Of a stretch of 64,000 bases of DNA, positions 3,373 through 32,186 are shown piece after piece; position 1 is the stretch's first letter, and each line of letters begins with the position of its first letter. This DNA comes from Rhynchopus sp. YZ270_cl-10. Its lineage: Eukaryota. Position numbers and translations under genes: made by a program. The notes below the pieces were generated by a model that saw only the letters and a program-made list of their open reading frames with translations, was not told where the DNA came from and did not search any database. The stretch is taken from the NCBI GenBank assembly GCA_964035575.1, contig OZ037836.1, forward strand, positions 930,001 to 994,000, read 5' to 3'.

Positions 3373-3388
3373 CCAAAACTGAACGTCG

Positions 3389-4703: not shown

Positions 4704-4894
4704 CCGACTTCAGATCTCTCTCCTCTCCACCCCCTCTCCCTGAACCAGCGCCCTTCACAGACGTTCCCTCCTCACGAAAGCAAACCCACCTTCCCCCACC
4801 CCACCCCACGCAAGGAAGCATGTCAAAGGTGCCAAAAGCACCCCACCGCCAGACACAGCTTCCCCTCTGCAGCTCACCCCTTCTGCACAAGAAA

Positions 4895-9942: not shown

Positions 9943-10530
9943 GAAAAGCTTCGTTGTATTAGTGTGGACACCCGAGGAGTGTGCTCCACTGTGTTCTCCT
10001 TTTCAACGTGGCCACCATCGTTTTCGTTGGCTTCACATCAGTTTTGCATTTTCATGACTTTTCAGTTTCTCTATCTTCTGCGATATGACGCGCAAACACG
10101 CCGTTTTCAATTTGATTCGCAGACCGATACTGACTCACGAAGTTGCTGTGTCAAAAAACACTTTCCTCTGCGAGGCGGGGTACCACAGCGACAACGTCTA
10201 TCACTCATGCGCCTATGAGTCGCTCAATGGCGTCATGGCTTTTATCATGACTGCAGGGGTCCAACCCTGCACATTGCTCTCACAACACAAAATACAAATA
10301 TGCACACAAATGAAGAGATGAAAGATACCTTACAATAAGACAACAAACACCGGTGGGGTAAAAACTAAGAAGGGGTTTAATCCCACCGATATTTGTCTTA
10401 CTGTATTTCATTTGACGTGCACAGGAAAACAATACCATTTTTTTTACCCCAAACCACCCGAGGGAGAGCTGCAAAAGTCAGGCCTAATGCTAACTTTGGG
10501 GGAGGGGGAAAAAAAGTGAACCAGCGAAAA
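9880..10530. repeat. Orphan copy of the family-B LRR upstream region
   Basis: Near-identical to about 35090-35790 and to the corresponding regions near 40790, 51430 and 53560. Confidence 0.85.
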
Positions 10531-11021
10531 AAATGCTCGAGAGACTCGTTCCTCTTTGCTTGTTGCTCAAAAGACTATAAACGGGGGGGAAAAAAGTAAA
10601 AGTTGTTTGTTGTTCGCTTCCACACCACTTCTGCACTCAGATTCAAGTCTTTTGGCTGTCCTTACAAGCGCCTGCCAAAACGCTCGCCTCGTGGGTGTGG
10701 ACTTTTTTTTTTTTTTTTCTTCGACTTGATTTACGATATGGTTGTGTTTGCCTGAAGTACAGAAAGTGTCGTGGAGCACAGGGGGGAAAAGAAGGGGAAA
10801 CAAGCGGGGAGCGGGATACGCAGACGCGCGACTTTTCACGAGGGTCTCGAGCATTTTGTCAAATACTACGTGTTTACTAAAAATGCTCGAGAGACTCGTT
10901 CCTCTTTGCTTGTTGCTCAAAAGACTATAAACGGGGGGGAAAAAAGTAAAAGTTGTTTGTTGTTCGCTTCCACTCCGAACCCTTTTGCCATGAAGGGGAC
11001 GCAGCGCGACGTAAAGCTGTA

Positions 11022-13694: not shown

Positions 13695-13777
13695 GACATC
13701 AGTGCGGCTCTTTGGGGTTGGGACAAAATTGGTTCGACTTTCAGTGGGCGGCCTCGTTTTTTCGGTTTGGGGTTCAA
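12824..13777 (-). CDS. Tyrosine recombinase
   Basis: Catalytic R..K..HxxR..H..Y pattern: GAARASD, TTKSD, HSLRRG, SRHKT, LLRY; first ATG at about 13699. Confidence 0.92.
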   Translation of the reverse strand: MNPKPKKRGRPLKVEPILSQPQRAALMSCVKDTLKKSLSRDRWQNLSYLFRRFLEFKQKWEACTGNPLEMDLAIVLWVERLREMDCIANSSALQYSYDIVSALQRMAYHKMAFSMLLEDYRGALKRLGALKPKQQAVPACPEEVEETLRQTPSPVLKLAISMCWLGAARASDVLRLRAEEVVTREDGVTSVNWVTTKSDPFRIGQQTGLNIEHSSFLTLKKLLKTAKRSRDTLIFKDVTFQHINTALKKVNPTLTPHSLRRGACYQLLKEGMPLEEIQKVSRHKTIEGLLRYLPAAGIRRVADTASLSQALRIKLDD

Positions 13778-13852
13778 AAGGTTTGGAAAGAGTGTGTGTA
13801 GGGGGGAAAAAACAGAAAGAGGGGTGGTTTGAGTTGACTCGAGGGGGTGGAG

Positions 13853-14917
13853 TCAGTTCCCCCCCTTTCCCGCCTTATCGTTCTTGGACCCCTCACGGTT
13901 TGCATCACGGTTGTATTCGCGGTTTGTGTCTCTCTGGCGGTCCCGGTCTTCTCTGTATCCACCCCTGTCTCGCGAGTCCCATCCTTTCCCCTTTTTGCCT
14001 CCGGAAGACTTAGAGGCGCGGTGGGCATCGTCGCGGGTCTTCCTCTTTTTGTCGAAAGCTTCTTTCCCCTTTGCCTTCATTTCTTCGAGGAGTCGCTTCA
14101 TGATGTGTGGTTCAAATTTTTCGACCTTTTGCGCTTTCGCCTTCACCTCGTACTCGAATCTCACTTCCTTTCCGTAGACTCCCAGGTGAATGAGAGAAGT
14201 GAGCTCCACAACGGTGGTATGGAGAAGATTAATAGTGGGTGGATGAGAGGTCTTGTCATCAGTCAGTGTGTCTATCGTCAAGAGTAGGCTGTCGATTTTC
14301 CGTGCTCGATCGATCTCGTAATCTGGGGCATCACTTAACTCTGCAGGTATCGTCGCCGTTTTAAAATGGGCGCGTACCGCATCCTTTACCAGCAGTCTCA
14401 TCTTCTTATCCTCCAACTTTGTCCATGTGCACACCACGTCAGCTGCAAAGTTTAAAGGGAGGGTTAGGTCGATTCGTTGTTCCAGAGCGTCTATCCTGGC
14501 TGACATCTCGTCCAGCTTGTTCATGATTGCTTGGAAAGAGTGTTGCGAGGTGGTGTCTGTGTCTGTAACGGCGTTGTTTCCTGCGTTGGTCTCCTCCTCG
14601 GACGATGCGTCGTCAGGGTCAATTTCCTGTGTGGGTGGGGTGGGGGTGACGTGTTTCCTCCAACAACACTCCGGGCATCGGAATGTGTCGGCGGTGAAGT
14701 TATCTAGCACCACCTGCCTGATATGTGCCGGAACGCACTTCTTCAGGCAGGTCACCGACGACGCCTTCCCACAATCTCTGCATCGTGCCCCCGCATGTTG
14801 CTGCGTGCAGGTGCCAAAGCTGCATCCTGGGGCATCGTCTGCGCGGGGATCGTCCGCCTCCACCGACAAAGGGATCGCGTCCCAGTCCACCGAGTCAATG
14901 CCGGGGTAGTCGGACAT
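13853..14917 (-). CDS. Gag-like ORF1 with a Cys/His zinc-finger region and coiled coil
   Basis: First ORF of the element; CSFGTC..H...CRDC...C...C...CPEC; basic RG-rich tail. Confidence 0.75.
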   Translation of the reverse strand: MSDYPGIDSVDWDAIPLSVEADDPRADDAPGCSFGTCTQQHAGARCRDCGKASSVTCLKKCVPAHIRQVVLDNFTADTFRCPECCWRKHVTPTPPTQEIDPDDASSEEETNAGNNAVTDTDTTSQHSFQAIMNKLDEMSARIDALEQRIDLTLPLNFAADVVCTWTKLEDKKMRLLVKDAVRAHFKTATIPAELSDAPDYEIDRARKIDSLLLTIDTLTDDKTSHPPTINLLHTTVVELTSLIHLGVYGKEVRFEYEVKAKAQKVEKFEPHIMKRLLEEMKAKGKEAFDKKRKTRDDAHRASKSSGGKKGKGWDSRDRGGYREDRDRQRDTNREYNRDANREGSKNDKAGKGGN

Positions 14918-14965
14918 TTGGATTAGGGTTTTTTTTTTTTTTTTTTTTTAGATAGGATTCGTTCT

Positions 14966-15150
14966 GGCTCTCAGGCCGGTTTTTTTGTTTTGTTGATGGT
15001 TTTCGATTCTAGCTCTCCGGCCGGTTTTTGCTGATGGTTTTCGGTTTTTGCTGATGGTTTTCGATTCTGGCTCTCAGGCCGGTTTTTGCTGATGGTTTTC
15101 GATTTCTAGCTCTCAGGCCGGTTTTGCTGATGGTTTTCGATTTCTAGCTC
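14966..15150. repeat. ~35-bp tandem repeats in the retroelement 5' UTR
   Basis: Repeated ctctcaggccggtttttgctgatggttttcgattct. Confidence 0.8.
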
Positions 15151-16940
15151 TTCGTTCTAGGCTGGACGGTCGGATTCGTTGATAGGTTCGTCTAGCCGGA
15201 TAGTTTGTTGTTTTTTTTTTTTTTTTTTTCTTCGACTTGATTTACGATATGGTTTTGTGTTTGCCAATGAAGTACAGAAAGTGTCGTGGAGCACAGGGGG
15301 GAAAAGAGGGGGAAACAAGCGGGGAGCGGGATACGCAGACGCGCGACTTTTCACGAGGGTCTCGAGCATTTTGTCAAATACTACGTGTTTACTAAAAAAA
15401 AAAAAAAGAGCGAAAAAAAAATTTTCCCTCCGGGAAGGCAGGCCTTTTTCTAAATCCGGTCCCCGTCCCCAGATTTGGAAAAATAAATTTTTTTCCCGCA
15501 CTTTTTTTCCCGCCGTCTCTACTGCGTTTTAGGGGTTCACAGGGGCTCAGAGGAGCCCGATAAAAAATACCACGTGTCTGGATGAGACCGCTCGTGCAAA
15601 ATAACCAGTTTTCGGGGAGGGAAAAAAAAGGGGGAGGGGTGCCGAATCCAGAACACCCCCCCACCAAGTCCCCCCCGTGTGGTTGAACGGGAGTACCTTG
15701 GGGAAATGGGTTGCTGACCGCACCATGAAATCCCGCACCATCCAGGCTGTACCTCAAATATTTTTTTGCCTGCGGCGCTATTATTCATTTTTTGCTCCGC
15801 AACAAAGGGTTCGTTGAGTGACTCTGTGGTGTAAAAAGCTAGATTTTTACACCGTGCCCTAAATTTTTTTTGCCTGCGGCGCCATTTTTTCTTTATTTTT
15901 TTTGCACCGCAAAAAAAAATACAGTCCCTCTGTCCCCAATGTCTTCCCTGGTCAGCAGCGCCGAAAATTATCTCATGGACCACACTTCGCTGAGGCGGTG
16001 TACGAACCAATGGTTCATTTTCTTTCAAGTCTGCCTCAACGACACATTTCGGAGGATTACTGCAGCCCTGGCCAACCTGGAGCCCTCCATCACCCTCGTC
16101 GAGGCACAAGTACCCCCTCCGCCATTCTTCCACACTATCCGTGAGGACGATTTTACGCTGCGTATGAGCAAGGGGCCAGCCCATATCAGCTTTGTCTAAA
16201 AATCCCTCCACCCATCACCCAAATATGGCCCAGATTGTGTTCAAATGGGTCAAATTTTCACAGCGCTTCCCAAATTTGTCATGGAGGCGGGCGCAAAGCG
16301 CAAAAAAACCCCGAAAAAGGGCACAAAAATCACACAAAAAAGACGCGAAAAGGGCGGGAAAACAAGTAATTGCTATCGGAAAAAAAACCGGGTGTGCTGT
16401 GGAACTCCACTCTGAAAAAAATATAATCTACAACACGCCCAGCATTCTGCTCTTCTGCAGGTATGCTAAAACGCTCTTCGTACGCTGCTGAACCCACTGG
16501 GATGCCTGCATCTGAAACTTTTAAACAGTGCGGCTGTCCTCTTCGTCCAGCACCATCTGCTCGATCGCGTTATTGGACGTAGTCTCGGCAGGCTCGATAA
16601 CCATTCGCTCGGGCGGCCTCGGCATGTTCCAGCTCGTAGTCGTCCACAGGCTCCCACGCATCGTCGTCGTCATCAGAGCAGTGCGGAAGGAACACATAAT
16701 GCACAGACGACAACACGTCGTCGATCGCACCAGGCATCGTCACATCAGCACCTCCAGAAAATCGCCAGGATGCTATGGTGGTTTCGAAAATCGCGCGGAG
16801 TTATCCACAGCACACCCCATTTTTTTTCTTAGCAATTAGTTGTTCTTGTTATTATTGTTTTCCCCACCCTTCCTTCAACCCGATCAGTTCGTATTGTTTT
16901 CGCGAAAACATGAAATTACACATTTCAAGAGAACAAAAAA

Positions 16941-17772
16941 TTAAAAAGGGTTCGCCCCCTCAATGGGACGCCGGAAACCATAATTCCTCAGTGTCAGCCG
17001 CATCATTTCAATGAAACCAAAAAGTGGCTTATTTGCATTTTTGGGCTCCGCCCGTGCAGCGGTGGGGTCATTTCGGAAAATTGGACAATTTTTTGACCAC
17101 TTAAATTTTGAGAAATATGAGCCCGGTTCCTTATACGTGGGGCCCATTTTTGGCCAAAATTTTTCTCAAAATCGACGAAATTAAAATTAGACCCCTTACC
17201 CCCCCCCAGAATCATTTCAATACACTACCTGTATTGGTTGCTGACGCGTGTATACAGGAAGGTTGGGAAAAAGTGGCTTATTTGCATTTTTGGGCTCCGC
17301 CCGTGCAGCGGTGGGGTCATTTCGGAAAATTGGACAATTTTTTGACCACTTAAATTTTGAGAAATATGAGCCCGGTTCCTTATACGTGGGGCCCATTTTT
17401 GGCCAAAATTTTTCTCAAAATCGACGAAATTAAAATTAGACCCCTTACCCCCCCCCAGAATCATTTCAATACACTACCTGTATTGGTTGCTGACGCGTGT
17501 ATACAGGAAGGTTGGGAAAAATTAAAAAGGGTTCGCCCCCTCAATGGGACGCCGGAAACCATAATTCCTCAGTGTCAGCCGCATCATTTCAATGAAACCA
17601 AAAAGTGGCTTATTTGCATTTTTGGGCTCCGCCCGTGCAGCGGTGGGGTCATTTCGGAAAATTGGACAATTTTTTGACCACTTAAATTTTGAGAAATATG
17701 AGCCCGGTTCCTTATACGTGGGGCCCATTTTTGGCCAAAATTTTTCTCAAAATCGACGAAATTAAAATTAGA
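16941..17772. repeat. 250-bp satellite, left part (with an ~80-bp extra module)
   Basis: About 3 units matching those at 26177-28260. Confidence 0.95.
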
Positions 17773-17887
17773 CACGACGGACTAGTTATGACCATGACAG
17801 GTGATTTTACTAGTAAAATGACAGGTGAAAATTTTTGACAGGTGGTACCTGTCATTTTGACAGGTACCACCTGTCAAAATACAGGCA

Positions 17888-18080
17888 CCAGGTACCCAGG
17901 TGCCCAGGTACCCAGGTACCCAGGTACCCAGGTACCCAGGTACCCAGGTACCCAGGTACCCAGGTACCCAGGTACCCAGGTACCCAGGTACCCAGGTACC
18001 CAGGTACCCAGGTACCCAGGTACCCAGGTACCCAGGTACCCAGGTACCCAGGTACCCAGGTACCCAGGTACCCAGGTACC
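17888..18080. repeat. (CCAGGTAC)n 8-bp tandem array in the left subterminal region
   Basis: Near-perfect array. Confidence 0.95.
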
Positions 18081-19388
18081 CCCAATGACATAACGAAGTA
18101 TCGCTTGAAAGTACCGTTCAATAACCTTTCTTGGGTGTGCATGAAGTAGCACACAAGGTATATCAAACGGTAAATCAATCAGATAAACGTTACATCATCG
18201 GAAAATTGTTGGCACCGCCCCCCTGTCTTCGTATTTATTACGTCGACAGGCCAAACAGCGTTGGGCTCAGAAGAAGCAGTGCAAAACACTGGGGATCAAC
18301 ATGAGAACCAACTCCCAACAACACAGGCTACCAAAGTAGCAGGTGGGGTGTTGCGGGTGTTTGGGGTGAAAGAAAATCGATTTTGGTAAGTTCCAGCAGA
18401 AAATTCTTAAGTTTGCACTAGTCGAGAGAGGCTTACCCGCTGCAGTGAAGCAGTGCACCCATTTAAGGATGGAGAAGCGTGACACGCACATACAAGTATG
18501 TACGTTACTTCAACAAAGGCTGAATTCTGGTAATTCTAAGGGATGTGAATTCAGCCACCACGCAGGTAGTGTTTTAAGGTTCCTCGCTTTGTTCTGCACA
18601 GCGGCCTTATGATACAAAGGAGTTGCCCCCGCTCTCTTTCGCGCAAACTTAAGAAAATTCTGAAGTAACTACAACCTGGCGTGCGGGTACAGATGCATTG
18701 CTTTGTTCTTTCCTCAAAGTCATGTGTGATCTCTCGGGTCTGTACTAAAGTCAGTGTTTAGATAAGCATCCACTTGACTCGTTCTAACAACCGTTGAAAT
18801 CTAGAACAAAACAACACACTGCCCCTTCTCACACCAAGCCGCCATGCTTCAAGAGCATGCCCTGGGCAAAAATTACTGTGACAAAAACTGGTTTCTGGGG
18901 GAACGCAATATTTTCTTGTGTCTAGTCCTCCGCAAGCAGAGGACAGACTTTCCGGATCCCGAAGTCGAATTTCTTGCACTAGCTATGCTCCCTGGGTTAA
19001 TGGCTATAGCAGTGACTGACAAGAGTTTCCCACCCCCAGATGAAGAAAGAACCGACGCAGAGTTGTGGCTTCTTCATAGTTTTTTCTGCATTTTATAAGT
19101 TCATCCTGTGAGGGAGGGTGTTTTTGGAGGTGTGATGGGAAGAGGAAAAGAAAAAGCAAGAAGAAGAGATATTACTTTTTTGGTGTCGCTACTAGTAAAT
19201 GACAGGTGTAAAGTATGACAGGTGGAAACCTGCCATGTCACAGGAAATGCTGTGTGTGTGTGTGTAACAAAATGAACGACCTCACCGACCCGCATAAAAT
19301 AAAACTTATAAGAACAAAACCCAAGAAACAAACAAAAAAAAAAAAAAAAAGAGAGAAAACAAACAAGAGCAAACACTCTCAAAAGAAA

Positions 19389-19690
19389 TGCTCGAGACTC
19401 GTTCCTCTTTGCTTGTTGCTCAAAAGACTATTAACGGGGGGGGGGGGGGGAAAGTAAAGATTGTTTGTTGTTCGCTTCCACACCACTTCTGCACTCAGAT
19501 TCAAGTCTTTTGGCTGTCCTTACAAGCGCCTGCCAAAACGCTCGCCTCGTGGGTGTGGACTTTTTTCTTTTTCTTTTTCCCTTTTTTTTCTTCGACTTGA
19601 TTTACGGTATGGTTGTGTTTGACTGAAGTACAGAAAGTGTCGTGGAGCACAGGGAAGAAAAGAGAGAGAGGGAAAACCGGGGAGCGGGAG
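19389..19690 (-). mobile_element. Solo terminal fragment of the YR retrotransposon (SIRE-like)
   Basis: Matches 10534-~10815 (repeat B, spacer, part of A) with some divergence. Confidence 0.85.
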
Positions 19691-19720
19691 AGGGGAAAAC
19701 CCGCAAACCTTAGATTTAAA

Positions 19721-21547
19721 TTAACTATGAGCAGATTTCATGTGCGAGTCTCTTGCTCTAGCATTTGAGAAACGTGTTGCGCACAACGGGCAGGTTTTTT
19801 TATCCAAATTCTCAGCGTGCGCATGCAACAGGTGTTGGCTTAGCCCCGCAGTTTCCCTCAAACAAAACGGGCACTTCATGATAGGTGCACGATGTTTGCC
19901 ATCGTAATGGGCAAATAATCCAACTGAAGATTCGAATCCGGTGTTGCAGATAATGCAAGTATGGTCACCATTTTCATCATCTTTTTTTTTATCCTCGCAC
20001 ACATTTTCGACATTTTCGTCATCACTGTTGACTCCAGGCTCCTCATTGCACACACAAATGAGTAAAGTTTCCCCAGCTTTATCTTTTTTATCCCATACGT
20101 ATTTTTGCCCCTCCGCCCCTTTGTTGCAAGTATGCCGCTTCATACCCAGGTTTTTGACACGAGTTCTCAAACTAGTGAAGGCGTCTGTCCAGACAGCGTC
20201 TTTCTCGGTGATGCAGGTATGAAAATGAAAAGTGTTATAGTTATATAATACAGGCAATTTTTTTCTGTCGACTGGGCCAAGTTCAGGCAGGTCGCGTTTG
20301 CAATTTTGCTCAACCAAATGCTTCTTGCTCAGTTCAAATGCCAGCAAGTCACGTTCCATGGTCTGGACAGATGTACACACAGTCCATCTCTTGCGTTCCC
20401 CATTGCACTGTTCGAAAGCCTCATCTGAGAGACATATCCGATGTGCATCCTCCACGTCAAACCAGTGCTCAAGGCTATGAGCGTATGACGACCTGGTGAC
20501 GCCTGCTTTGAAAAATTCAAGCAAAAATATGAGGGTATGGTATGAGAGGAGGGCGTAAAGGAAGTCCTTCTCGTAGGGGTTATCTGTGCCTTCGTGGTAG
20601 TGATACCTGACAGGTATGTCTTGGTACCGGAAAAAAATGAGCACCTGCATACAGCTGCACATTATTTCCCGCATGCCAACCGTTTCACGTTCAAGCATGG
20701 TGAGGAGGGTACGTGATTGAGACCCCGTCATGTTCCCATCAGAAGAACCAGTGACTGTTTCTTGTGTGCTTCCTGCGTTGGGGATGGTCTTTATCATCAG
20801 GTTCACCATGCCTTTGCAATCGTGCAACGCAGGGGTTAAGGCATAGCACGGATGCTCAAATCGGTGCGAAATGTAACTGGTGAAGCCGAGCTCATCCATG
20901 CGCTGCAGGCTACACCTCTCACACCGATGAAGCTTCTTCAGTCTGTCATCGATATCAATGGGGCAGAAAGCAGTTCGATGTTTTCCTCCTAAACCCTTAC
21001 ACAGTCTCAGCAACTCTGCATGATCACCTCCAAACCTGAAATGAAGGATAGGGATGCGCAACTTCTTAACGTAGCACCCACGCGACTGTATGGACTTCAA
21101 AGCAACGAGGCCGCAGAACAACCACCACTCGTAAAAGTCGCTTTTGGTTTTGTCCGCGACAGTCAGGAATCTACTCGCCTGAAGCCCACTGGCTAATCCC
21201 ACGGCAGCACGTTGACGACCACTTGCACTTCTGAATGCACTTCGAGGCGTGTATGCGTCAGCAGATAATACGAGGATAGCTGGTGGGGAGTTCACGGTGA
21301 AGGGGAACTTTGCAGTCAGAAAGCACACAGCCTTCTCGATGTTACCAATTAAGCTCGTTGCCTTCTCCTTAAACGGCTCCTCGCGTATCCTCAGCGTCTC
21401 TCTGGATAGACCTACCCTCAAGGATGTGTGCTTGCGGATGAGTGAGCCAATTCGTGACACTGTGGTCATTGATAGGCCCAATTCGAAGCGATATCTGGCG
21501 ATGATATCCGCAATTTTCAGGGCTGTGCCAAGGTGAAGTTCACTCAT
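19721..21547 (-). CDS. Putative DDE transposase (CMC/Transib/RAG1-like core) with three C-terminal C2H2 zinc fingers, 608 aa
   Basis: Lies within TIRs; motifs LSADAY (D97), FGGDHA (D175), PALHDCKG, MTGSQSRTLL, SYAHSLEH, DEAFEQCNG (E379); C2H2 fingers CIIC..H..H, CPFC..H..H, CPLC..H..H. Confidence 0.75.
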   Translation of the reverse strand: MSELHLGTALKIADIIARYRFELGLSMTTVSRIGSLIRKHTSLRVGLSRETLRIREEPFKEKATSLIGNIEKAVCFLTAKFPFTVNSPPAILVLSADAYTPRSAFRSASGRQRAAVGLASGLQASRFLTVADKTKSDFYEWWLFCGLVALKSIQSRGCYVKKLRIPILHFRFGGDHAELLRLCKGLGGKHRTAFCPIDIDDRLKKLHRCERCSLQRMDELGFTSYISHRFEHPCYALTPALHDCKGMVNLMIKTIPNAGSTQETVTGSSDGNMTGSQSRTLLTMLERETVGMREIMCSCMQVLIFFRYQDIPVRYHYHEGTDNPYEKDFLYALLSYHTLIFLLEFFKAGVTRSSYAHSLEHWFDVEDAHRICLSDEAFEQCNGERKRWTVCTSVQTMERDLLAFELSKKHLVEQNCKRDLPELGPVDRKKLPVLYNYNTFHFHTCITEKDAVWTDAFTSLRTRVKNLGMKRHTCNKGAEGQKYVWDKKDKAGETLLICVCNEEPGVNSDDENVENVCEDKKKDDENGDHTCIICNTGFESSVGLFAHYDGKHRAPIMKCPFCLRETAGLSQHLLHAHAENLDKKTCPLCATRFSNARARDSHMKSAHS

Positions 21548-21618
21548 AGTGTGTTTGCAGTTGTGATGTTTCTCTGTGTGATGAATTTATGTCGAGGGAG
21601 GGGTGACCCACTAAACTT

Positions 21619-22652
21619 CATCACAGCTGCAATCACACTATGAGTGAACTTCATCACGGCACAGCCCATATCATCGCCAGATATCGCTTCGAATTGGCTC
21701 ACTCATCCGCAAGCACACATCCTTGAGGGTAGGTCTATCCAGAGAGACGCTGAGGATACGCGAGGAGCCGTTTAAGGAGAAGGCAACGAGCTTAATTGGT
21801 AACATCGAGAAGGCTGTGTGCTTTCTGACTGCAAAGTTCCCCTTCACCGTGAACTCCCCACCAGCTATCCTCGTATTATCTGCTGACGCATACACGCCTC
21901 GAAGTGCATTCAGAAGTGCAAGTGGTCGTCAACGTGCTGAGGGTTAGATTCCTGACTGTCGCGGACAAAACCAAAAGCGACTTTTACGAGTGGTGGTTGT
22001 TCTGCGGCCTCGTTGCTTTGAAGTCCATACAGTCGCGTGGGTGCTACGTTAAGAAGTTGCGCATCCCTATCCTTCATTTCAGGTTTGGAGGTGATCATGC
22101 AGAGTTGCTGAGACTGTGTAAGGGTTTAGGAGGAAAACATCGAACTGCTTTCTGCCCCATTGATATCGATGACAGACTTAACTTCATGATAAAGACCATT
22201 CCCAACGTAGGAAATTTTCGCGCGGAGCGCAAAAAAAAAAAAATTTTCTTTGGAGAAGGCTCGGTTTTCCATTATTGTTACAAAGTGTAGTGATTTAGGA
22301 TCTTTTTTTTCAGGAAAATTCAAAGGATAAACCACTTTTCCGGTGACCCCCCTCCCCCTCCTATACCAAAAAAAGTTTTCCTCCCCGGATTTCGATCGGA
22401 CCCCCCTCCCCCCCTTTTATTGTTATTTTGTAACAATAAATGGAAAAACGAGCCTTCCCTTGCCCTCGGTAACCCCGTAAGCCAAAACCCCGAAACCTGG
22501 AAAAAGGCCTGGAACGGATAAAAAGATTCAAAAATGACGAAGCAATACAATGAAGAGCCTAGAGTCAACAGTGATGACGACGAAAGTATGCGACGCTGAG
22601 AGCAAGAATAATAAAAAGAAGAGACTCTCGCATGAAATCTGACAAGTTTAAT
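21619..22652 (+). pseudogene. Inverted, internally deleted copy of the transposase gene
   Basis: 21619-22212 mirrors 20771-21568 with deletions; 22549-22652 mirrors pieces of 19721-20047; an unrelated insert lies between them. Confidence 0.9.
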
Positions 22653-23034
22653 ACAAACAGCGTGTAAAAAAAAAGAGGGGTGGGACTCTATTTTTTTTCT
22701 TGGGTGAACAATTGGAGGAAGAATTGCGAGGCAATAATATGCAACTTTTATAAAGTAACGCTACAAGTATGTCTGGTTTTTGTGCGCACCCCAATAATGA
22801 AGTGTAACAAAATAAATTTTTTTTTTGTAGTTTCGACAATCACCTGTCCGAGAACGGGTTCTGTACACAATGTTTTATATATATATTTTTTTTGTAGCTA
22901 CCTGCAAAAAAAAAAAAGAAGATGAACCTGAGCCTCTCGGGCTTAACCACCTCGAAATAAAGTGTAAAATGGTGTAAAAAAAAAAAAAAAAGAAAAAAAA
23001 AAAGTTAAAAAGATGACCCTAAGCCCGTACTTAT

Positions 23035-24048
23035 TTAAGTACTTACTTCTGAGAAAGTTCCCGACTTGTCGTCACTCTCCTCGTCATCGTCATCGTCATG
23101 GTCAATGGTATGGTTACTAACCGCTTGAGAAACCATGACATCCTCACTGACTTCTCCAACTTCGCTGCCTTCATCTGCAGAGTCATGGCGGAGGTCATCT
23201 GGAACCTCAGACTCCCATGAGCCACCTCCAACATTTACCTTGGCGGTGGCCACTGCACTGGCGAGAGGAATGTAGACCATGGTATTTCCACCCTTCTCTA
23301 TTACGACTTCTTTACTGAAGTCAATCACGTACGTGTCGGGAACACGATACTTGAAATCGTAAACACCAGGTGTGAAGTTGGTGCTGGGCAATGTTCTTTT
23401 GAACGACATGGTGAAGTCGCTGCCCGAGAGTTTTGCAGAGTCAGGGACGAGCTTCGTGCACCCGCTCTCCACCATGAGCCAGAGACACTTCACTCCATTG
23501 TGCGTAACCCCGCCTTTGTTTGTGCATTCTGGCCAGCTTCTCGTAATCTTTTTAGCTGGTGTCACTGAGGAGGTCTGTAGTTTGGCCTGGTACAACGTGA
23601 GAACTTTCGCCTCATCGAGGTTGCATTTCTGTGCCAAGTTCTTCAGGCTCTTGTACTCCGCCGAATTGCTCTGTCCATTGGTGGGCGTTTGGCGCAGGGT
23701 GAAGCCGCAGAATTCGAGGTCGCTGTTCCCACTCGCTCGGCGGGAATAGTACGTCATGCTGCCGGCGTCTACTGCATTTTTGGCAGTCTTAATTTTGTGA
23801 AGTAAGTTCATCTCAATGCTAATTAAGCCGCTCTCTGATTTCAGATTTATCCCGAAAAGATTGTTCAACATCGCCTTCAACGGCGCATGAAGGAATGATT
23901 TGCCCTCTTTTTTCATCACATATATCTTGAGGAAGTTCTGCACCACATCCCTCACCTTAGATTCCACAGCCGGTTTGGGTTTGGGTTTGTCATCTACGAC
24001 CTTCGATCTTTTGGTAGGCAGGGGCTGTGTCGCTGAGCGTTTTCCCAT
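23035..24048 (-). CDS. Transposon accessory protein of unknown function (basic N-terminus, acidic tail), 337 aa
   Basis: Clean ORF inside the TIRs; NLS-like PTKRSK; weak by-eye resemblance of the C-terminal half to an alpha-crystallin/HSP20 fold. Confidence 0.7.
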   Translation of the reverse strand: MGKRSATQPLPTKRSKVVDDKPKPKPAVESKVRDVVQNFLKIYVMKKEGKSFLHAPLKAMLNNLFGINLKSESGLISIEMNLLHKIKTAKNAVDAGSMTYYSRRASGNSDLEFCGFTLRQTPTNGQSNSAEYKSLKNLAQKCNLDEAKVLTLYQAKLQTSSVTPAKKITRSWPECTNKGGVTHNGVKCLWLMVESGCTKLVPDSAKLSGSDFTMSFKRTLPSTNFTPGVYDFKYRVPDTYVIDFSKEVVIEKGGNTMVYIPLASAVATAKVNVGGGSWESEVPDDLRHDSADEGSEVGEVSEDVMVSQAVSNHTIDHDDDDDEESDDKSGTFSEVST

Positions 24049-24138
24049 TTTTTATATTGTTTTTGTTGGTTAATTCCTGAATTGAGTGTCAGGGGGCGGG
24101 AGGGTAGCTTGAACCATGCACATTAATTAATAATTATA

Positions 24139-25113
24139 ATGCAACCTCGTTCAACCACCCCCCTGACACCCAATTCAGGAACCAACAAAAGCAATATAAA
24201 CTGCCTACCAAAAAAGCGAAGCCCGATGATGCCACAAACCAGCTACTGTGGAATCTAAGGTGACGGATGTGGTGCAGAACTTCCTCAAGATATATGTGGT
24301 GAAAAAAGAGGGTAAAGCATTCCTTCATGCGCCGTTGAAGGCGATGTTGAACAATCTTTTCGGGATAAAGAGAGCGGCTTAATTAACGTTGAGATGAACG
24401 CACAAAATTCACAAAATTAAGACTGCCAAAAATGCAGTAGACGCCGGCAGCATGACGTACTATTCCCGCCGAGCGAGTGGGAACAGCGACCTCGAATTCT
24501 GCGGCTTCACCCGCCCACCAATGGACAGAGCAATTCGGCGGAGTACAAGAGCCTGAAGAACTTGGCAGCAGAGAAATGCAACCTCGATGAGGCGAAAGTT
24601 CTCACGTTGTACCAGGCCAAACTACAGACCTCCTCAGTGACACCAGCTAAAAAGATTACGAGAAGCTGGCCAGAATGCACAAACAAAGGCGAGGTTACGC
24701 ACAATGGAGTGAATCCTGACTCTGCAAAACTCTCGGGCAGCGACTTCACCATGTCGTTCAAAAGAACATTGCCCAGCACCAACTTCACACCTGGTGTTTA
24801 CGATTTCAAGTATCGTGTTCCCGACACGTACGTGATTGACTTCAGTAAAGAAGTCGTAATAGAGAAGGGTGGAAATACCATGGTCTACATTCCTCTCGCC
24901 AGTGCAGTGGCCACCGCCAAGGTAAATGTTGGAGGTGGCTCATGGGAGTCTGAGGTTCCAGATGACCTCCGCCATGACTCTGCAGATGAAGGCAGCGAAG
25001 TTGGAGAAGTCAGTGAGGATGTCATGGTTTCTCAAGCGGTTAGTAACCATACCATTGACCATGACGATGACGATGACGAGGAGAGTGACGACAAGTCGGG
25101 AACTTTATCAGAA
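24139..25113 (+). pseudogene. Inverted copy of the accessory gene, lacking its ATG and carrying small deletions
   Basis: Reverse complement of 23048-24120; 3' half essentially identical. Confidence 0.92.
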
Positions 25114-26176
25114 CCAGAGGCCATGACTTTGGTATTTTTACCCCTTTCTCTCCCCCCCCCCCCCCCCCCCCTCCCAGTACCTGTTAGACACACTTGTAGT
25201 GTTATTTTGTAAAAGTTGTTGTGGTTGCATATAATTATTAATTAATGCCAAAAGATCGGGTGGAGGGGTGGGGGTGAGATGACAGCTAAAAGATCGGGTG
25301 GGGGTCGGTGAGGTCGTTCATTTTTGTTACACACACACACACACACACAGCATTTTATGTGACATGACAGGTGCCACCTTCACGGTGACTACCTCGACGA
25401 CGCACACGCTCCACAACGAGGTCAAACCCGAAAAAGAGAACCTTAGGGCACAGCCAGTACACCTTTCCCTAAGTGTGTAGCATGCAGAACATACATGGGC
25501 TGACATCAAAACCAAAAAAAGAAGCAAATAAAAAACAACATTTTTTGTTTATCTCTCTGCAAGAATTTTTCCCACGGCTATTTGTGTGTACCATCAAAAG
25601 TGCTCGTAAGTGCCTTCATTTCCATTTTTCCCCCAGGATTGAGGACATGTGGGCAATTTGTGATGTCGAAAAAAAAAGTTTTGGTCAAAAAATGGACTTG
25701 TCTTTCGGAAAAAATCGGCTGCGCAAAACCGTGTTTTAGACCCCCACAGATGCTCAAAACTGCCAAATTTTGCTTTTAATGGCCTCAAATCGTCGAAATT
25801 CGCCCTAAAAGGGGGCAAAAAAAAAAATTCGAGAGTCCCTTTCCCTGGGAGGCAATAGCCACCGGCAAAAACACCTGTCATATGACAGGTGGTACCTGTC
25901 AAAATGACAGGTACCACCTGTCAAAATGACAGGTACCACCTGTCATATGACAGGTACCACCTGTCAAAATGACAGGTGGTACCTGTCATCTTACAGGTAC
26001 CACCTGTCATATGACAGGTGGTACTTGTCACCACCTGTCATTTTACAGGTGGTACCTGTCATTTTACAGGTACCACCTGTCATATTACTAGTAATATTCA
26101 ATTATCACCTGTCATATTTATAACTAGTTACACCACCTGTCATATCACCTGTCATGGCCATAACTAGTCCGTCGTG

Positions 26177-28260
26177 GACCCCTTACCCCCCCCCAGAATC
26201 ATTTCAATACACTACCTGTATTGGTTGCTGACGCGTGTATACAGGAAGGTTGGGAAAAAAGTGGCTTATTTGCATTTTTGGGCTCCGCCCGTGCAGCGGT
26301 GGGGTCATTTCGGAAAATTGGACAATTTTTTGACCACTTAAATTTTGAGAAATATGAGCCCGGTTCCTTATACGTGGGGCCCATTTTTGGCCAAAATTTT
26401 TCTCAAAATCGACGAAATTAAAATTAGACCCCTTACCCCCCCCCCAGAATCATTTCAATACACTACCTGTATTGGTTGCTGACGCGTGTATACAGGAAGG
26501 TTGGGAAAAAAGTGGCTTATTTGCATTTTTGGGCTCCGCCCGTGCAGCGGTGGGGTCATTTCGGAAAATTGGACAATTTTTTGACCACTTAAATTTTGAG
26601 AAATATGAGCCCGGTTCCTTATACGTGGGGCCCATTTTTGGCCAAAATTTTTCTCAAAATCGACGAAATTAAAATTAGACCCCTTACCCCCCCCCAGAAT
26701 CATTTCAATACACTACCTGTATTGGTTGCTGACGCGTGTATACAGGAAGGTTGGGAAAAAAGTGGCTTATTTGCATTTTTGGGCTCCGCCCGTGCAGCGG
26801 TGGGGTCATTTCGGAAAATTGGACAATTTTTTGACCACTTAAATTTTGAGAAATATGAGCCCGGTTCCTTATACGTGGGGCCCATTTTTGGCCAAAATTT
26901 TTCTCAAAATCGACGAAATTAAAATTAGACCCCTTACCCCCCCCCCAGAATCATTTCAATACACTACCTGTATTGGTTGCTGACGCGTGTATACAGGAAG
27001 GTTGGGAAAAAAGTGGCTTATTTGCATTTTTGGGCTCCGCCCGTGCAGCGGTGGGGTCATTTCGGAAAATTGGACAATTTTTTGACCACTTAAATTTTGA
27101 GAAATATGAGCCCGGTTCCTTATACGTGGGGCCCATTTTTGGCCAAAATTTTTCTCAAAATCGACGAAATTAAAATTAGACCCCTTACCCCCCCCCAGAA
27201 TCATTTCAATACACTACCTGTATTGGTTGCTGACGCGTGTATACAGGAAGGTTGGGAAAAAAGTGGCTTATTTGCATTTTTGGGCTCCGCCCGTGCAGCG
27301 GTGGGGTCATTTCGGAAAATTGGACAATTTTTTGACCACTTAAATTTTGAGAAATATGAGCCCGGTTCCTTATACGTGGGGCCCATTTTTGGCCAAAATT
27401 TTTCTCAAAATCGACGAAATTAAAATTAGACCCCTTACCCCCCCCCCAGAATCATTTCAATACACTACCTGTATTGGTTGCTGACGCGTGTATACAGGAA
27501 GGTTGGGAAAAAAGTGGCTTATTTGCATTTTTGGGCTCCGCCCGTGCAGCGGTGGGGTCATTTCGGAAAATTGGACAATTTTTTGACCACTTAAATTTTG
27601 AGAAATATGAGCCCGGTTCCTTATACGTGGGGCCCATTTTTGGCCAAAATTTTTCTCAAAATCGACGAAATTAAAATTAGACCCCTTACCCCCCCCCAGA
27701 ATCATTTCAATACACTACCTGTATTGGTTGCTGACGCGTGTATACAGGAAGGTTGGGAAAAAAGTGGCTTATTTGCATTTTTGGGCTCCGCCCGTGCAGC
27801 GGTGGGGTCATTTCGGAAAATTGGACAATTTTTTGACCACTTAAATTTTGAGAAATATGAGCCCGGTTCCTTATACGTGGGGCCCATTTTTGGCCAAAAT
27901 TTTTCTCAAAATCGACGAAATTAAAATTAGACCCCTTACCCCCCCCCAGAATCATTTCAATACACTACCTGTATTGGTTGCTGACGCGTGTATACAGGAA
28001 GGTTGGGAAAAAGTGGCTTATTTGCATTTTTGGGCTCCGCCCGTGCAGCGGTGGGGTCATTTCGGAAAATTGGACAATTTTTTGACCACTTAAATTTTGA
28101 GAAATATGAGCCCGGTTCCTTATACGTGGGGCCCATTTTTGGCCAAAATTTTTCTCAAAATCGACGAAATTAAAATTAGACCCCTTACCCCCCCCCAGAA
28201 TCATTTCAATACACTACCTGTATTGGTTGCTGACGCGTGTATACAGGAAGGTTGGGAAAA
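26177..28260. repeat. 250-bp satellite, right part (~8.3 units)
   Basis: Units differ only in homopolymer lengths. Confidence 0.97.
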
Positions 28261-28320
28261 CCGGTCCCCAGCCGAAAAAACCCCGGAAAATAGGCCCGTC
28301 ACGGTTCAGGCCTGCCGGGA

Positions 28321-29050
28321 AGGGGTCCAGGGTTTTCGCTTATTTTCATGAAAATTTTTTTTCTCCCCAAAACCGTGAAGATATTTCCAAAAAGGGTTCA
28401 AAAAAAAAATTTGCGCTCCGCGCGAAAAGGTCCGTTCATTTCGCGTAAATACGTGATGACGTGGGATGGTAACGTGCATCAAGAACCAAACCAGCCCTTT
28501 TCTCACGTTTTTCCACGTCAAGCCGTCGCACTAGGTTCTCTCTTGTGAACGCAACCTTCCCTCAGTACAAGAAGAAACGGCGGATGACATCAAAACTTTC
28601 TGGCGAAGCCACGGTACGCACAACATTTCAAAAATTGTGACCTAAAACCGAACATTTTTACAGCCAAACTATGGTAGAGGTCTGTGGGCTGCCAGTTTTT
28701 GAGCTGCGCCGCAGGCGCACGGTACGCTACTTTTTTAATTTTTGCCGGCAAGGGGGGTGCATCATTGAGTCCCTGAAACAGGTCTCCATCGTCACCTCCT
28801 GAAGATGCGGGCGCAGGCGCCCACATCTCCAGGACCAAGGTACCCACGGCATACCACAGGCAGAGAACCCCCCGTCCCAAAAAACCCCCATTTTTAAGGG
28901 TGAACCAGCGGATAAAAATAAAAAATAATAAATAAAAGTGAACCAGCGAACCAGCGGATAGCATTAGGCCTGTGCAAAAGCCCGGAAAAAGGCAAAAAAA
29001 AATAAAAATCCCCACCCAAAAAAGAAAGAAAAAAACGAAAACATAAATCA
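28321..29050. repeat. Dispersed repeat, also at 35829-35901 + 37582-38530
   Basis: Near-identical sequence; the second copy carries two extra insertions. Confidence 0.85.
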
Positions 29051-29379
29051 TCCAAAATCTGCCCAGCCGTATAGAAAAGCCCGATTTTGGTCTGGTTTTT
29101 AGGTTATCCATTTTTCGCTAAAAAAATTGTCCGACCCCGGAATTTTTTCAGATCGCTCCGGAAATTCATACAAGCGCATTTTCGGGGGAAAAAATTACAC
29201 CCTCGGTGTCGCAAACGCTTGCGGGCGTGCCCGCAAACATCCTGGAAATGATTAGCCCAATTTTTTTTTTTCGATTTTTATTTATTTTGAAAGATCGGGT
29301 GTAAAAGCGTTCAATTCCGGGGGGGGGGTCCGTAAGTTTGTGTATTAGTGTGTAAAATTTCCGGCCCTTTTGGGTGAAA

Positions 29380-29820
29380 AAAAAAAGGGGTGAGGGGAGT
29401 TGGGTCCAGTCATAGGGGGTATAGCATATTTTTTGGAAAATTCTTCAAAAAAGCAAGGATTTTTGCTGAGCACAATGAAATTTTCAGAAAAATCCCAATT
29501 TTCGGCCAAATTTGGAGCAAATTAGGGCCCACACACCCCGATTTTGGGTCAAAAACCGACTTCATTGCTCAGGAGTGCCTACGATTACGTAAACCAAAGG
29601 TCCTCTGGATGCATGCATTGATAAACACAACACTGGAAATTGCAAGGAACAGGTCTGCATGCGTGTTCTCTAGCCACTACAGTCACAGGGTATGCACAAA
29701 ATGACCGTATTGTGGTTGAATTTTGACTTGCAAATGTTTTTCACGAACATGTATTTCTGAGGTTTTTTGGATTCTTTGGGCCATTTTATGGCTTCGGGTG
29801 CCTACCACGCCCGTTTTTGA
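29380..29820. repeat. Dispersed repeat, also at about 60860-61250
   Basis: Shared gggtgaggggagttgggtccagtcatagg...gtatgcacaaaatgaccg. Confidence 0.8.
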
Positions 29821-32186
29821 GCAATAAAAATTTTTTTGTCTGGTCAAAAATCGCCTTGTACTTGTGAAAGGAATTGCTAAGGAAATGTGAAATATGTGTG
29901 TTTTTGTACACAAAAGTGCGTTTTGGGTGCTTCTGAAGGGTCAAAACACCAAAATTTTGCGTTTTTTTGCGTTTTTGATCTCCCAAGGACACACTATTTT
30001 CGGTGAATTTTTTTGTGAAAAAAAACTGAAAAATCACGGCTATAAGAACGCTAAGGAAAAATCAATATTCATTTTTTTTGGGCAGAAAAGTGCGTTTTAG
30101 GTGCCCACCGATGGTCAAAACATCATTTTTTTTGTGTTTTTGGCATCTTTGGACACCCAAGGACCCACTATCGGGGTGATTTTTTTTTTCCTGAGATTTG
30201 CCTTTGCCAAAATCGAAAAAAAAAAAATTGTGACGGAATTTGCTAAGGAAAAGTCGAAATTGTGGGCCCCTGTAGTAATGCATAAGGTGCATAATGCATA
30301 TGTTTACCCCCAGATCGTCAAAACACCCGATTTTTGCGTTTTTTTGCACTTTTTGGTGCCCAAAAACCCAACTCAGGGGTCGAAATTTTCCCGAAAAAAA
30401 AATTTTTTTTTTTTTGAGATTTTTTGATTTTTTGACAAGGCGCTGTCCCATACAAAATGCACTGGTGGTACAGAAAATGACTGGGGAACTAACTCTAGAT
30501 GCTCAAAACAGCCCAATTCTTGCTTTTTTTGACTTTTTGGTCCCAGAAGGGAGCCTAGGGTGTAGTGAGCAGGCCTCAAAAACACTTCTGAAAAAAAAAA
30601 TTGGGATTTTTTTTTTTGAGATTTTTTCAAAAATCGACTTGTTTTTGGTAAAAATCACGAAATTTTGGGTTCGCGGAACCGCGTTTTAGACCCCCCTAGA
30701 TGCTCAAAAGTGCCAAATTTTGCTTTTAATGGCCTCAAATCGTCGAAATTAGCCCAATACAGGGGCAAAAAAAAAAAAATTCGAGGGTCTAGGTATGGAG
30801 AGCGAGCACCTTAGAAGGAAGATCGTACGTAAATTTTTGTGTGTACAATTGTACACCCGGTCTGCCGGTCTTTTTCGAGGGTGGGTAGGACCGGCCCTTA
30901 TAGCCGGTAATCCTTAAGAGCCGGTCTTTTTACGGACCCTAAAGACCGGCCAAAGACCGGCTATACACACTAATTACGTGTCTGGTCGTTGCCGGTCTAT
31001 TTACGGATCCCCCGGGGTCGGACGATTTTTTTTACGCACCTGTGGTATTCTGAAGAAAAATCGTGAGGGGGGCGGTTTTCAGTAGGTTCCTTAAGGTTTC
31101 CCTTACCACACCCATTTCCTTAAGGATTTCCCGGGTTTTCCTTCTAATGACCAAGATGTTTCACCTTGACGCAACTTCAAGAAAGTTTTCGATTTTTTTT
31201 TCTTTGGAACGAGGGTTCATAATATCATTCAAATAACGCCGGTTTCGTCTCGCGAAAATTTTTTGACTGTCACTAGTATTTTGTGTGGAACTCGGCCCGT
31301 TTTGCTAAGCAATTTGCCTTGTATTAGTACCTAAAGCCATGGTCTGGTTTTTATGTAACTTTAACTCCACTAAAGTTTTCGATTTTTTTTTTATTTTATT
31401 GGGCGGAGTCCAGGGCGCGCGCTAAATCCACACCCTCACACCCGGTTTTTTCGAGGTTTTTTCGCGGTACAAAAATTTTTTGATTACACGATTTCCTTAA
31501 GAAAATCAGAGAATCCCGTCTTGTACAGTAAGGGCACTTCAGATAGTTTTTGGACACACATGTGACCCCACCGTGGAGAGCAATCGGCTCGCGCAATCAA
31601 AAGAAAGCAGAGAAAAGGGGAAAGAAAAAAGAATAAAGTTGAGTACCGTGCGCCTGCGGCGCTACCTGTTCCCTACCCCCCCATGATGTACTTACAGTAG
31701 GACAAGTAATATTGGCGACCAAAAAAGTCGCCAATTGCAAGAAAACCCCCAAAATCCGCCAATATTTTTTGGTCGCCAAGTTATTTGGTGGGAAAGCGGT
31801 TCTTATTGGTACAAAAAGCACAAGTACAAAAAATGTGCCCCTTCAGTGCACCAGGTGCAGCGTATCTTTCAAGAAAGTCGAATATTAGCTCCGCGCCACG
31901 CACTCACGCAGCCACCCAAAAATACACATGGTGAGGCACAAAAACTTTACCAAAATTGCGAAAAAAACCACTTCCCAACCACTGTGACTACGAACCACTA
32001 CCCTACCAATTAATATTGGCGACCAAAAAAGTCGCCAATTACAAGAAAACCCCCAAAATCCGCCAATATTATTTGGTCGCCAAGTTATTTGGTCGCCAAG
32101 TTTCTTGTCCTACTGTATATTCCACCTGATTTTGACCATGTTTGCCGGTGTTTTCCGGTGTTGGCCGGTGAAGTCACGGTAATGGG

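What the first reader, a model, noticed from the sequence alone, without database searches (positions are those of the whole stretch)
17773..26176. Two-gene CAC-terminated transposon with a divergent RAG1/Transib/CMC-like transposase
Seen: ~33-bp TIRs starting CACGACG, a 2-bp TSD, subterminal TGACAGGT repeats and an intact 608-aa ORF with three C2H2 fingers. By eye the motifs align to the RAG1 core in order: SADA~SCDG, GGDH~GYDE, PALHDCKG~DALHCDIG, MTGSQSRTLL~MNGNFARKLM, SYAHSLEH~NYFHKTLAH, DEAFEQCN~SEGNESGN. The 2-bp TSD and subterminal repeats are EnSpm/Mirage-like, whereas Transib makes 5-bp TSDs. It may be an undescribed lineage. Intact ends and insertion into a homogeneous satellite suggest recent mobility.
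Basis: partly seen in the sequence, partly recalled or inferred. Interest (0 to 1): 0.78.

Follow-up and report, generated by a model that had tools for sequence, protein, structure and literature searches.

The report
RAG-like transposon carrying hairpins against itself
An 8.4-kb jumping gene from what is likely a marine flagellate encodes an enzyme predicted to fold like the antibody-gene recombinase RAG1, and beside each of its two genes it carries a mirror-image broken copy that would fold the RNA into a hairpin and likely lets the element damp its own activity.

Summary
Confirmed: an 8,404-bp element with CAC..GTG ends (32 of the first 33 bases match), a 2-bp GA duplication in a 250-bp satellite, and 29 TGACAGGT motifs, all inside the element. 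The 608-aa transposase folds confidently (pLDDT 92.5) like RAG1 (Z 20.5) and Transib (Z 17.7) at about 11% identity. D97/D175/E379 are invariant in 16 of 16 aligned family members. Its 41 sequence relatives form their own family; the only named ones are diplonemid.

Upstream of each gene lies an inverted, deletion-riddled copy of it, with 234–392-nt perfect stretches. Loops and deletion joints recur in short-read contigs of public runs. Arm-derived proteins occur on 8 contigs each, as do the intact genes, so the hairpins likely travel with the element.

Best reading: a recently active cut-and-paste transposon of the CMCT/RAG-Transib clade, of an unnamed lineage, whose read-through RNA likely feeds RNAi against itself; neutral hitchhiking is the main rival. 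The second gene weakly resembles an alpha-crystallin domain, not RAG2. Untested: siRNAs, target duplications of other copies, and phylogeny against Repbase.

The parts
17771..17772 (.). Left target-site duplication (GA)
   Evidence: 10 empty satellite units carry one GA
17773..17810 (+). Left terminal inverted repeat, begins CAC
   Evidence: I18
17795..17876 (.). Left subterminal array, 6 TGACAGGT motifs in both orientations
17888..18081 (.). 8-bp tandem repeat, 24 copies, sharing the core of the subterminal motif
19190..19294 (.). Degenerate internal copy of the left subterminal region; left arm of an inner inverted repeat (likely an older end)
   Evidence: alignments; (84% to 25299-25379)
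19382..19689 (-). Piece 87% like the split direct repeats of the neighbouring tyrosine-recombinase retroelement, just 3' of the transposase stop
19721..21547 (-). ORF1: 608-aa RAG1/Transib-fold DDE transposase (D97, D175, E379; H357-x3-H361; C-terminal C2H2 fingers; no N-terminal nonamer-binding domain)
21569..21618 (.). Loop of foldback 1, just upstream of the ORF1 start
   Evidence: I10; spanned by short-read contigs in runs X1 and X3
21619..22641 (+). Arm 1: inverted, deleted copy of ORF1 (perfect 250- and 234-nt blocks; diverged remnants reach the last codons)
   Evidence: its product is on 8 contigs
22255..22457 (.). Small inverted repeat (31-nt arms, 94%) in non-gene DNA inside arm 1
23035..24048 (-). 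ORF2: 337-aa orphan accessory protein; basic N-terminus, acidic tail, weak alpha-crystallin-domain resemblance near residues 185-268
24086..24157 (.). Loop of foldback 2, upstream of the ORF2 start
   Evidence: spanned by contigs in X1, X3 and X4
24158..25218 (+). Arm 2: inverted, deleted copy of ORF2 and a piece of its 3' flank (perfect 392-, 120- and 105-nt blocks)
   Evidence: its product is on 8 contigs; one 1049-nt contig of X6 carries its deletions
25299..25372 (.). Right arm of the inner inverted repeat, with one TGACAGGT
25872..26154 (.). Right subterminal array, 19 TGACAGGT motifs
26139..26176 (-). Right terminal inverted repeat, ends GTG
   Evidence: I18
26177..26178 (.). Right target-site duplication (GA)
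26177..28260 (.). 250-bp satellite (8.3 copies, 99%) into which the element inserted; further units at 17019-17772

Best explanation
This is a multi-copy, likely still mobile cut-and-paste DNA transposon whose transposase is predicted to have the RAG1/Transib fold, and which carries an inverted broken copy of each of its two genes that likely turns read-through RNA into hairpins and small RNAs damping its own expression. Shown: ends, 2-bp duplication at this one insertion, intact ORFs, conserved DDE and zinc-ligand residues, arms present in independent short-read contigs and on 8 contigs. Inferred, transposition: the DDE core cuts at the CAC ends; the C-terminal C2H2 fingers, standing in for RAG1's missing N-terminal DNA-binding domain, and/or ORF2 bind the TGACAGGT arrays; insertion leaves a 2-nt stagger. 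Inferred, control: a diplonemid-type host transcribes polycistronically, so RNA crossing the element in either direction holds arm-loop-gene and folds back. Dicer would cut it into siRNAs; perfect 21-mers cover 514 of 1827 nt of ORF1 and 780 of 1014 nt of ORF2. The siRNAs would act on all copies, while processed mRNAs that escape still allow some transposition. Arm-to-gene conversion likely keeps the stems perfect in patches. My odds: transposon with RAG-type fold 0.95; arms real and family-wide 0.9; arms yield silencing RNA 0.6; kept because of it about 0.45.
For: Fold: pLDDT 92.5. 46 Foldseek matches at E<=0.001; the listed rows in that range are all RAG, ProtoRAG or Transib chains. Z 20.5 / rmsd 4.3 / 391 aligned to RAG1 (chain range from residue 459), 17.7 / 4.5 / 366 HzTransib, 14.9 P element, 9.2 Hermes. 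Copies: identical ORF1 on 6 contigs plus 2 broken copies; ORF2 on 7+1. Arms: arm-1 products on 6+1+1 contigs and arm-2 products on 8; all 8 arm-2 and all 3 arm-1 sequences carry the window's deletion joints. Reads (4 runs, 3 studies): foldback joints in X1 and X3 (loop 1) and X1, X3, X4 (loop 2); the 43-nt skip in 4 of 4 runs. In X1 a contig shared by gene and arm has depth 1366, against 572-791 for loop- and arm-only contigs, about 2:1. Substitutions are clumped: longest clean runs 516 and 392 columns, reached by 0 and 1 of 20,000 shuffles. Hairpin 1: 93% of 1261 nt paired in the predicted fold. Host context: D. papillatum has polycistronic clusters, SL trans-splicing and a full RNAi set (PMC10161547 passages). 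Precedent: Mu killer (PMC3440606 abstract).
Against: No small-RNA or transcript data were seen. There is no strand bias toward G-U pairs among arm-gene transitions (13 vs 10, p=0.68), so no sign of RNA-level selection. The 8 copies are nearly identical and probably come from one recent master, so 8 of 8 is one event and not conservation; the window's own copy is among them, and that they are 8 loci of one genome is inferred from shared contig lengths. The larger sister family (P0004, 19 members) showed no recurrent arm-like product: the one candidate, P0048, is on 1 contig. Self-silencing sits awkwardly with recent amplification. The read tool warns that contig depth is no copy number and that a listed run may be the window's source. 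The host is inferred, not shown. The first cysteine of the clade's C(2)C motif is Thr here.
Confidence: 0.5

Rival explanations
1. The arms are selectively neutral passengers. Inverted duplications arose by template switching or alternative transposition in an ancestor, are homogenised in patches by hairpin gene conversion, and were amplified with one master copy; any siRNA is incidental or a cost.
For: No G-U bias. Arm 2 substitutions look pseudogene-like (3 synonymous, 15 non-synonymous). Other nested rearrangements exist in the element (inner inverted repeat, degenerate internal end). No recurrent arm product was seen in the sister family. Alternative transposition is reported to make such alleles in maize (search listing).
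Against: Two separate foldbacks share one design: each loop sits 20-45 nt upstream of a start codon and each arm runs toward that gene's stop. They persisted long enough to reach 8% divergence in unconverted parts (first 230 columns of arm 2 at 91.7%, the rest 99.4%) while both ORFs stayed intact.
Confidence: 0.33
2. The arms are decayed relics of genes once kept in both orientations, so that an element landing either way in a polycistronic unit was expressed.
For: Each arm is a gene-length unit starting upstream of the ATG. Diverged arm-1 patches show 8 synonymous against 4 non-synonymous changes (small numbers, patches picked by similarity).
Against: Both arms are frameshifted and arm 1 lacks most of the catalytic core; a perfect two-way gene would itself make double-stranded RNA.
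Confidence: 0.1
3. The arms act at the DNA or splicing level, as cruciforms or as cis-antisense that hides the trans-splice acceptor, rather than through siRNA.
For: On the coding strand each antisense arm precedes its gene and pairs up to the region just 5' of the start codon.
Against: No splice-leader site is mapped; no direct data.
Confidence: 0.05
4. The arms are long-read foldback or assembly artefacts.
For: Both broken copies are the second arm on the + strand and are rich in deletions; homopolymer lengths differ between the 8 copies.
Against: The same joints occur on 8 contigs and in short-read contigs of 4 runs; arm-only DNA has its own contigs with 0 differing letters.
Confidence: 0.02

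Closest known systems
CMCT clade (EnSpm/CACTA, Mirage, Chapaev, Transib, Plavaka, ESTA, Lanisha; PMC12730594, passages read)
   Same: DDE triad, H(3)H motif, CA..TG ends, duplication within 2-5 bp, RAG1-type fold
   Different: First Cys of C(2)C is Thr here (Cys in 4 of 16 aligned proteins); no sequence-level hit to a named lineage; built-in foldbacks
Transib and RAG1/ProtoRAG (PMC9435367, main text read; PDB 6xnz, 6pqx, 6b40)
   Same: Best structural matches over residues 7-419; CAC ends; two genes in tandem orientation as in AanRAGL
   Different: About 11% identity against 26-37% averages within RAG1L/Transib; 2-bp rather than 5-bp duplication; no N-terminal NBD; C-terminal C2H2 fingers; second gene shows no kelch/RAG2 signal; many subterminal repeats
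EnSpm/CACTA
   Same: Subterminal motif arrays and an accessory second gene (recalled features)
   Different: Ends are CACGA; Transposase_21 was not among the Pfam families shown for 32 members (25 of 44 shown) nor among 30 Atlas hits
ESTA and Plavaka (fungi; PMC12730594)
   Same: 2-bp duplications; ESTA was also recognised through RAG1 similarity
   Different: ESTA duplicates TA; Plavaka ends are TGT or CATCA; here GA and CACGA
Mu killer, Ac killer, Tam3 Stabiliser loci (PMC3440606 abstract; search listing; bioRxiv 2024.06.24.600476 abstract)
   Same: Inverted duplication of transposon sequence that gives hairpin RNA on read-through
   Different: Those are single rearranged loci silencing in trans; here the hairpins sit inside an element with intact genes and ends, cover both genes, and are present on all 8 contigs found

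Membership tests
CMCT clade | DDE triad in an RNase H / RAG1-type fold | tested here: met
   D97 ends strand 90-99, D175 follows strand 167-173, E379 lies in helix 375-391; invariant in 16 of 16; Z 20.5, rmsd 4.3, 391 aligned to RAG1
CMCT clade | H(3-4)H motif before the catalytic E | tested here: met
   H357-x3-H361 in 16 of 16
CMCT clade | C(2)C motif after the second D | tested here: inconclusive
   Second Cys (C195) in 16 of 16; first position is Cys in 4 of 16 and Ser/Thr in 12 of 16, Thr in this protein; H207 (15 of 16) or C209 (14 of 16) may substitute
CMCT clade | 5'-CA..TG-3' termini | tested here: met
CMCT clade | 2-5-bp target duplication | tested here: met
   GA at one insertion only
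CMCT clade | Placement in a transposase phylogeny with named lineages | not testable with these tools
   No EnSpm, Mirage, Chapaev, ESTA, Lanisha or Transib sequences were available to align; the tree holds only this family
Transib | 5-bp target duplication | tested here: not met
   2 bp; 2-3-bp exceptions are reported in a preprint
Transib | CACAATG-like terminal heptamer | tested here: inconclusive
   5 of 7 positions match (against the heptamer quoted)
Transib | Sequence-level similarity to Transib/RAG1 core | tested here: not met
   No RAG or Transib chain at E<=10 by phmmer or by a 32-sequence profile against PDB sequences; 9-12% identity in structural alignments
RAGL/ProtoRAG | RAG2-like kelch partner gene | tested here: inconclusive
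   ORF2: no Pfam hit; model pLDDT 36; no kelch rows, and 20 of 34 listed rows are small heat-shock domains at E 0.19-0.70
RAGL/ProtoRAG | N-terminal nonamer-binding domain and 5-bp duplication | tested here: not met
   Model residue 7 aligns to RAG1 residue 459; duplication is 2 bp
EnSpm/CACTA | CACTA/CACTG termini (recalled) | tested here: not met
   CACGA
EnSpm/CACTA | Transposase_21 domain | tested here: inconclusive
   No hit for this protein; profile searches miss remote members
ESTA | TA target duplication | tested here: not met
   GA
Killer loci (Mu killer type) | Inverted partial duplication of the transposase gene | tested here: met
Killer loci (Mu killer type) | Single rearranged locus silencing in trans | tested here: not met
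   Intact genes and ends; arms on 8 contigs
Killer loci (Mu killer type) | Hairpin transcript and siRNAs | not testable with these tools
   No raw small-RNA reads were available

The most novel reading that the evidence does not exclude
A new superfamily-level branch beside RAG/Transib, radiated in euglenozoan flagellates, in which an autonomous transposon has evolved one dedicated RNAi hairpin per gene as a heritable brake kept sharp by gene conversion, and carries an alpha-crystallin-domain accessory protein where ProtoRAG carries RAG2.
Probability: 0.25. Interest if true: 0.88.

Novelty: new variant of a known kind. Interest (0 to 1): 0.74.

Why it matters
First, whether transposons evolve self-restraint is an old question that rarely has a separable part to test; here two discrete arms can be deleted and copy number measured. 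Second, a RAG1-fold transposase at about 11% identity, with a 2-bp stagger, no NBD and C-terminal zinc fingers, is a deep outgroup for the origin of V(D)J recombination and for how target-site length is set. Third, I found no report of this clade in diplonemids or euglenozoans in the held library, and an active native element could serve as an insertion tool in a group with few.

Tried and rejected
No relatives were found in viral contigs (84 pattern matches, 0 confirmed) or prokaryote genomes (57, 0). One 1026-bp metagenome fragment was found, too short to show ends or arms. Pfam, NCBIfam and PDB sequence searches gave only zinc-finger hits for ORF1.

ORF2: only its own family in the protein collection; no usable Atlas hit. 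A by-eye homeodomain/HTH resemblance near residues 128-158 got no support. Sequence searches for the crystallin-like part were empty or irrelevant. A bacterial small-HSP profile was started and dropped because the hits were all IbpA-type. The ORF1-ORF2 complex prediction returned no answer, score 0.00, which is no evidence either way.

No RNA holder was listed among runs. The G-U bias test was negative. Rfam gave 0 hits over 16000-32000. The paper search for the 8-bp motif gave nothing relevant among the 15 of 1,323 listed; its likeness to TALE-homeodomain sites is recalled only. Earlier findings of this scan: none in 3 look-ups.

Flanks of other copies were not seen, so the duplication length rests on one insertion. 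The structure search over all representative chains was not run, so folds that Foldseek ranked low are not excluded. CMC-type transposases do not appear among the listed solved structures, so the fold match cannot separate Transib from CMC. Repbase was not searchable; the supplements of PMC12730594 were not opened and bioRxiv supplements were not seen.
Full report
1. Observation. The element spans 17773-26176 (8,404 bp). Its ends form a 38-nt, 92% inverted repeat starting CAC; 32 of the first 33 bases match. It interrupts a 250-bp satellite. The target motif occurs 11 times in the window; 10 are empty and read with a single GA, while this site has GA on both sides. A 2-bp duplication is the simplest parse, but it rests on one insertion. 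All 29 TGACAGGT matches of the 64-kb window lie inside the element, 25 of them in the two subterminal arrays. Two intron-free ORFs lie on the minus strand: 608 aa and 337 aa.

2. The transposase. Sequence libraries see only its C-terminal zinc fingers. A search of 1.84 billion cluster representatives with residues 1-524 found 41 relatives at E<=0.001. The names returned for cluster members all come from a Rhynchopus euleeides (diplonemid) transcriptome; the rest are unnamed ENA, JGI or Logan records. Using 31 of these relatives as alignment, residues 1-430 folded at pLDDT 92.5, pTM 0.90. Foldseek gave 46 matches at E<=0.001, and the listed rows in that range are RAG1, ProtoRAG and HzTransib. 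Realignment gave Z 20.5 (rmsd 4.3, 391 aligned) to mouse RAG1, 17.7 (4.5, 366) to HzTransib, 14.9 (6.4, 340) to the P element and 9.2 (4.8, 251) to Hermes, at 9-12% identity. Model residue 7 pairs with RAG1 residue 459, so there is no N-terminal nonamer-binding domain. In 16 aligned near-full-length proteins (chosen from those fetched) D97, D175, E379, C195, H242, H357 and H361 are invariant; the first Cys of C(2)C is present in only 4 of 16. Core identities run from 21% to 57% and the tree has three main groups, so this is a diversified lineage. Language-model neighbours agree: 14 of 30 hits carry RAG1 Pfam families, 2 carry DUF1280, 14 are unnamed, and none carries an EnSpm or Plavaka family (a lead only). 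Distances between the catalytic residues were not measured.

3. Copy number. The exact 608-aa protein is on 6 contigs, with broken copies on 2 more; ORF2 is on 7+1. At least four sister families occur on contigs of similar or the same lengths. That these are loci of one assembly is my inference. The neighbourhood (ubiquitin-like LRR gene arrays, a tyrosine-recombinase retroelement, a LINE, read by eye) and the named homologs point to a diplonemid or related euglenozoan host; this too is inference.

4. Immediately upstream of each gene is an inverted copy of it. Arm 1 (21619-22641) has perfect blocks of 250 and 234 nt, deletions of 12, 31 and about 26 nt and larger, and diverged remnants down to the last codons. 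Arm 2 (24158-25218) has perfect blocks of 392, 120 and 105 nt and deletions of 10, 10, 29 and 42 nt. Loops of about 50-70 nt lie 20-45 nt upstream of each ATG. Both arms are frameshifted.

I tested whether they are artefacts. Short-read contigs from 4 public runs (3 studies; one may be the window's source; run type not on record) were laid on 21560-24110. They cross loop 1 in 2 of 4 runs and loop 2 in 3 of 4, show the 43-nt skip in 4 of 4, and one 1049-nt contig carries arm 2's deletions. In X1, gene-plus-arm contigs are about twice as deep as loop- or arm-only contigs (1366 against 572-791; one gene-2 contig 2054); the tool warns that depth is no copy number. Independently, arm-derived ORF products occur on 8 contigs for each arm, with the same joints. 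The arms therefore move with the element. Substitutions are strongly clumped: 14 in 648 and 23 in 916 columns, with clean runs of 516 and 392 reached by 0 and 1 of 20,000 shuffles (arm-1 patches were picked by similarity). This fits old duplications homogenised by gene conversion.

5. How it likely works. Transposition follows RAG/Transib chemistry (inferred from the fold). End recognition likely uses the C-terminal fingers and/or ORF2 on the subterminal arrays (inferred; no binding data). For control: D. papillatum transcribes gene clusters polycistronically and encodes Dicer, Argonaute, Piwi and RdRP homologs (PMC10161547, passages). Read-through across this element in either direction would contain arm, loop and gene on one RNA; hairpin 1 is predicted 93% paired. 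Perfect 21-mers cover 28% of ORF1 and 77% of ORF2. I therefore favour siRNA-based self-damping, a Mu-killer-like module carried inside an autonomous element. Against it: no RNA evidence, no G-U strand bias (13 vs 10), one likely master copy, and no recurrent arm product in the largest sister family. Neutral hitchhiking is the main rival.

6. ORF2. It is an orphan. I picked residues 177-270 for a by-eye alpha-crystallin resemblance before the structure search returned. Foldseek of a poor model (pLDDT 36) then listed small heat-shock/crystallin chains in 20 of 34 rows, at E 0.19-0.70. Nothing is significant and sequence profiles gave no support; I put this at about even odds. No RAG2-like signal appeared. 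Plant ACD proteins act with transposon-derived proteins in anti-silencing (search listing), which is a lead only.

7. Comparison. The element works like a CMCT-clade transposon (PMC12730594, passages) and meets four of its features, with C(2)C degenerate. It fails tested features of Transib (5 bp, sequence similarity), RAGL (NBD, 5 bp), CACTA (termini) and ESTA (TA), so I file it under none of them. Short duplications in true Transibs are reported (bioRxiv 2026.08.26.747230, abstract and one section). RAGL and Transib average 26-37% identity among themselves (PMC9435367, main text), well above the value here, although structural and sequence identities are not directly comparable. In print: 'diplonemid + DNA transposon + transposase' gave 0 papers; 'Euglenozoa + Transib + transposase' gave 1, on Merlin. 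The D. papillatum paper's passages list TATE, MULE and Helitron, and its 7 held supplements have no Transib, RAG1, EnSpm, CACTA or Chapaev. The RAG survey's held supplement has no euglenozoan name. Two searches on hairpins and self-silencing (20 of 63 and 14 of 17 papers listed) showed killer loci but, by title and abstract start, no autonomous element with built-in per-gene hairpins. Repbase and subscription journals were not searched.

8. Verdict. A real, recently amplified transposon; likely a new lineage near RAG/Transib; with a verified and unexpected double-foldback architecture whose function is untested. New variant of a known kind; interest 0.74.

Noticed in passing
window 10527-15398 (-): Apparently intact tyrosine-recombinase retroelement (gag-like 364 aa, RT/RNase H 950 aa, recombinase 342 aa, named by eye) with split direct repeats in A1-ORFs-B1-A2-B2 order (185 nt 97%, 98 nt 99%), Ngaro/VIPER-like (recalled); a related repeat piece sits inside the DNA transposon.
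   Followed up: partly
window 42623-50286 (-): Full-length LINE-like element: 962-aa ORF1 with an OTU-like cysteine-protease motif by eye, and a 1617-aa endonuclease-RT ORF.
   Followed up: no
window 1500-6759 and 33200-57390 (-): Two tandem families of genes with an N-terminal ubiquitin-like domain and 25-aa leucine-rich repeats (75-bp units); the second family ends in a CaaX-like motif (by eye).
   Followed up: no
window 19190-19294 and 25299-25379: Inner inverted repeat with degenerate end motifs, suggesting that an older 6.2-kb element gained new outer ends.
   Followed up: partly
window 25688-25837 vs 30629-30789; 22215-22233 vs 28410-28428 and 37606-37624: Short pieces shared with other dispersed repeats in the window; sources not identified.
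   Followed up: no
window 24121-24146 vs 25223-25247; 22742-22774 vs 25186-25218: Extra short inverted repeats bracket arm 2 and could give an alternative RNA fold.
   Followed up: no
protein clusters P0004, P0025, P0045, P0047: At least four more multi-copy families of the same transposase lineage on long ENA contigs; P0045 lacks the C-terminal fingers.
   Followed up: partly
window 36832-37173: 41-bp tandem array (8.4 copies) with GC-rich palindromic motifs, possibly the subterminal region of another DNA transposon.
   Followed up: no
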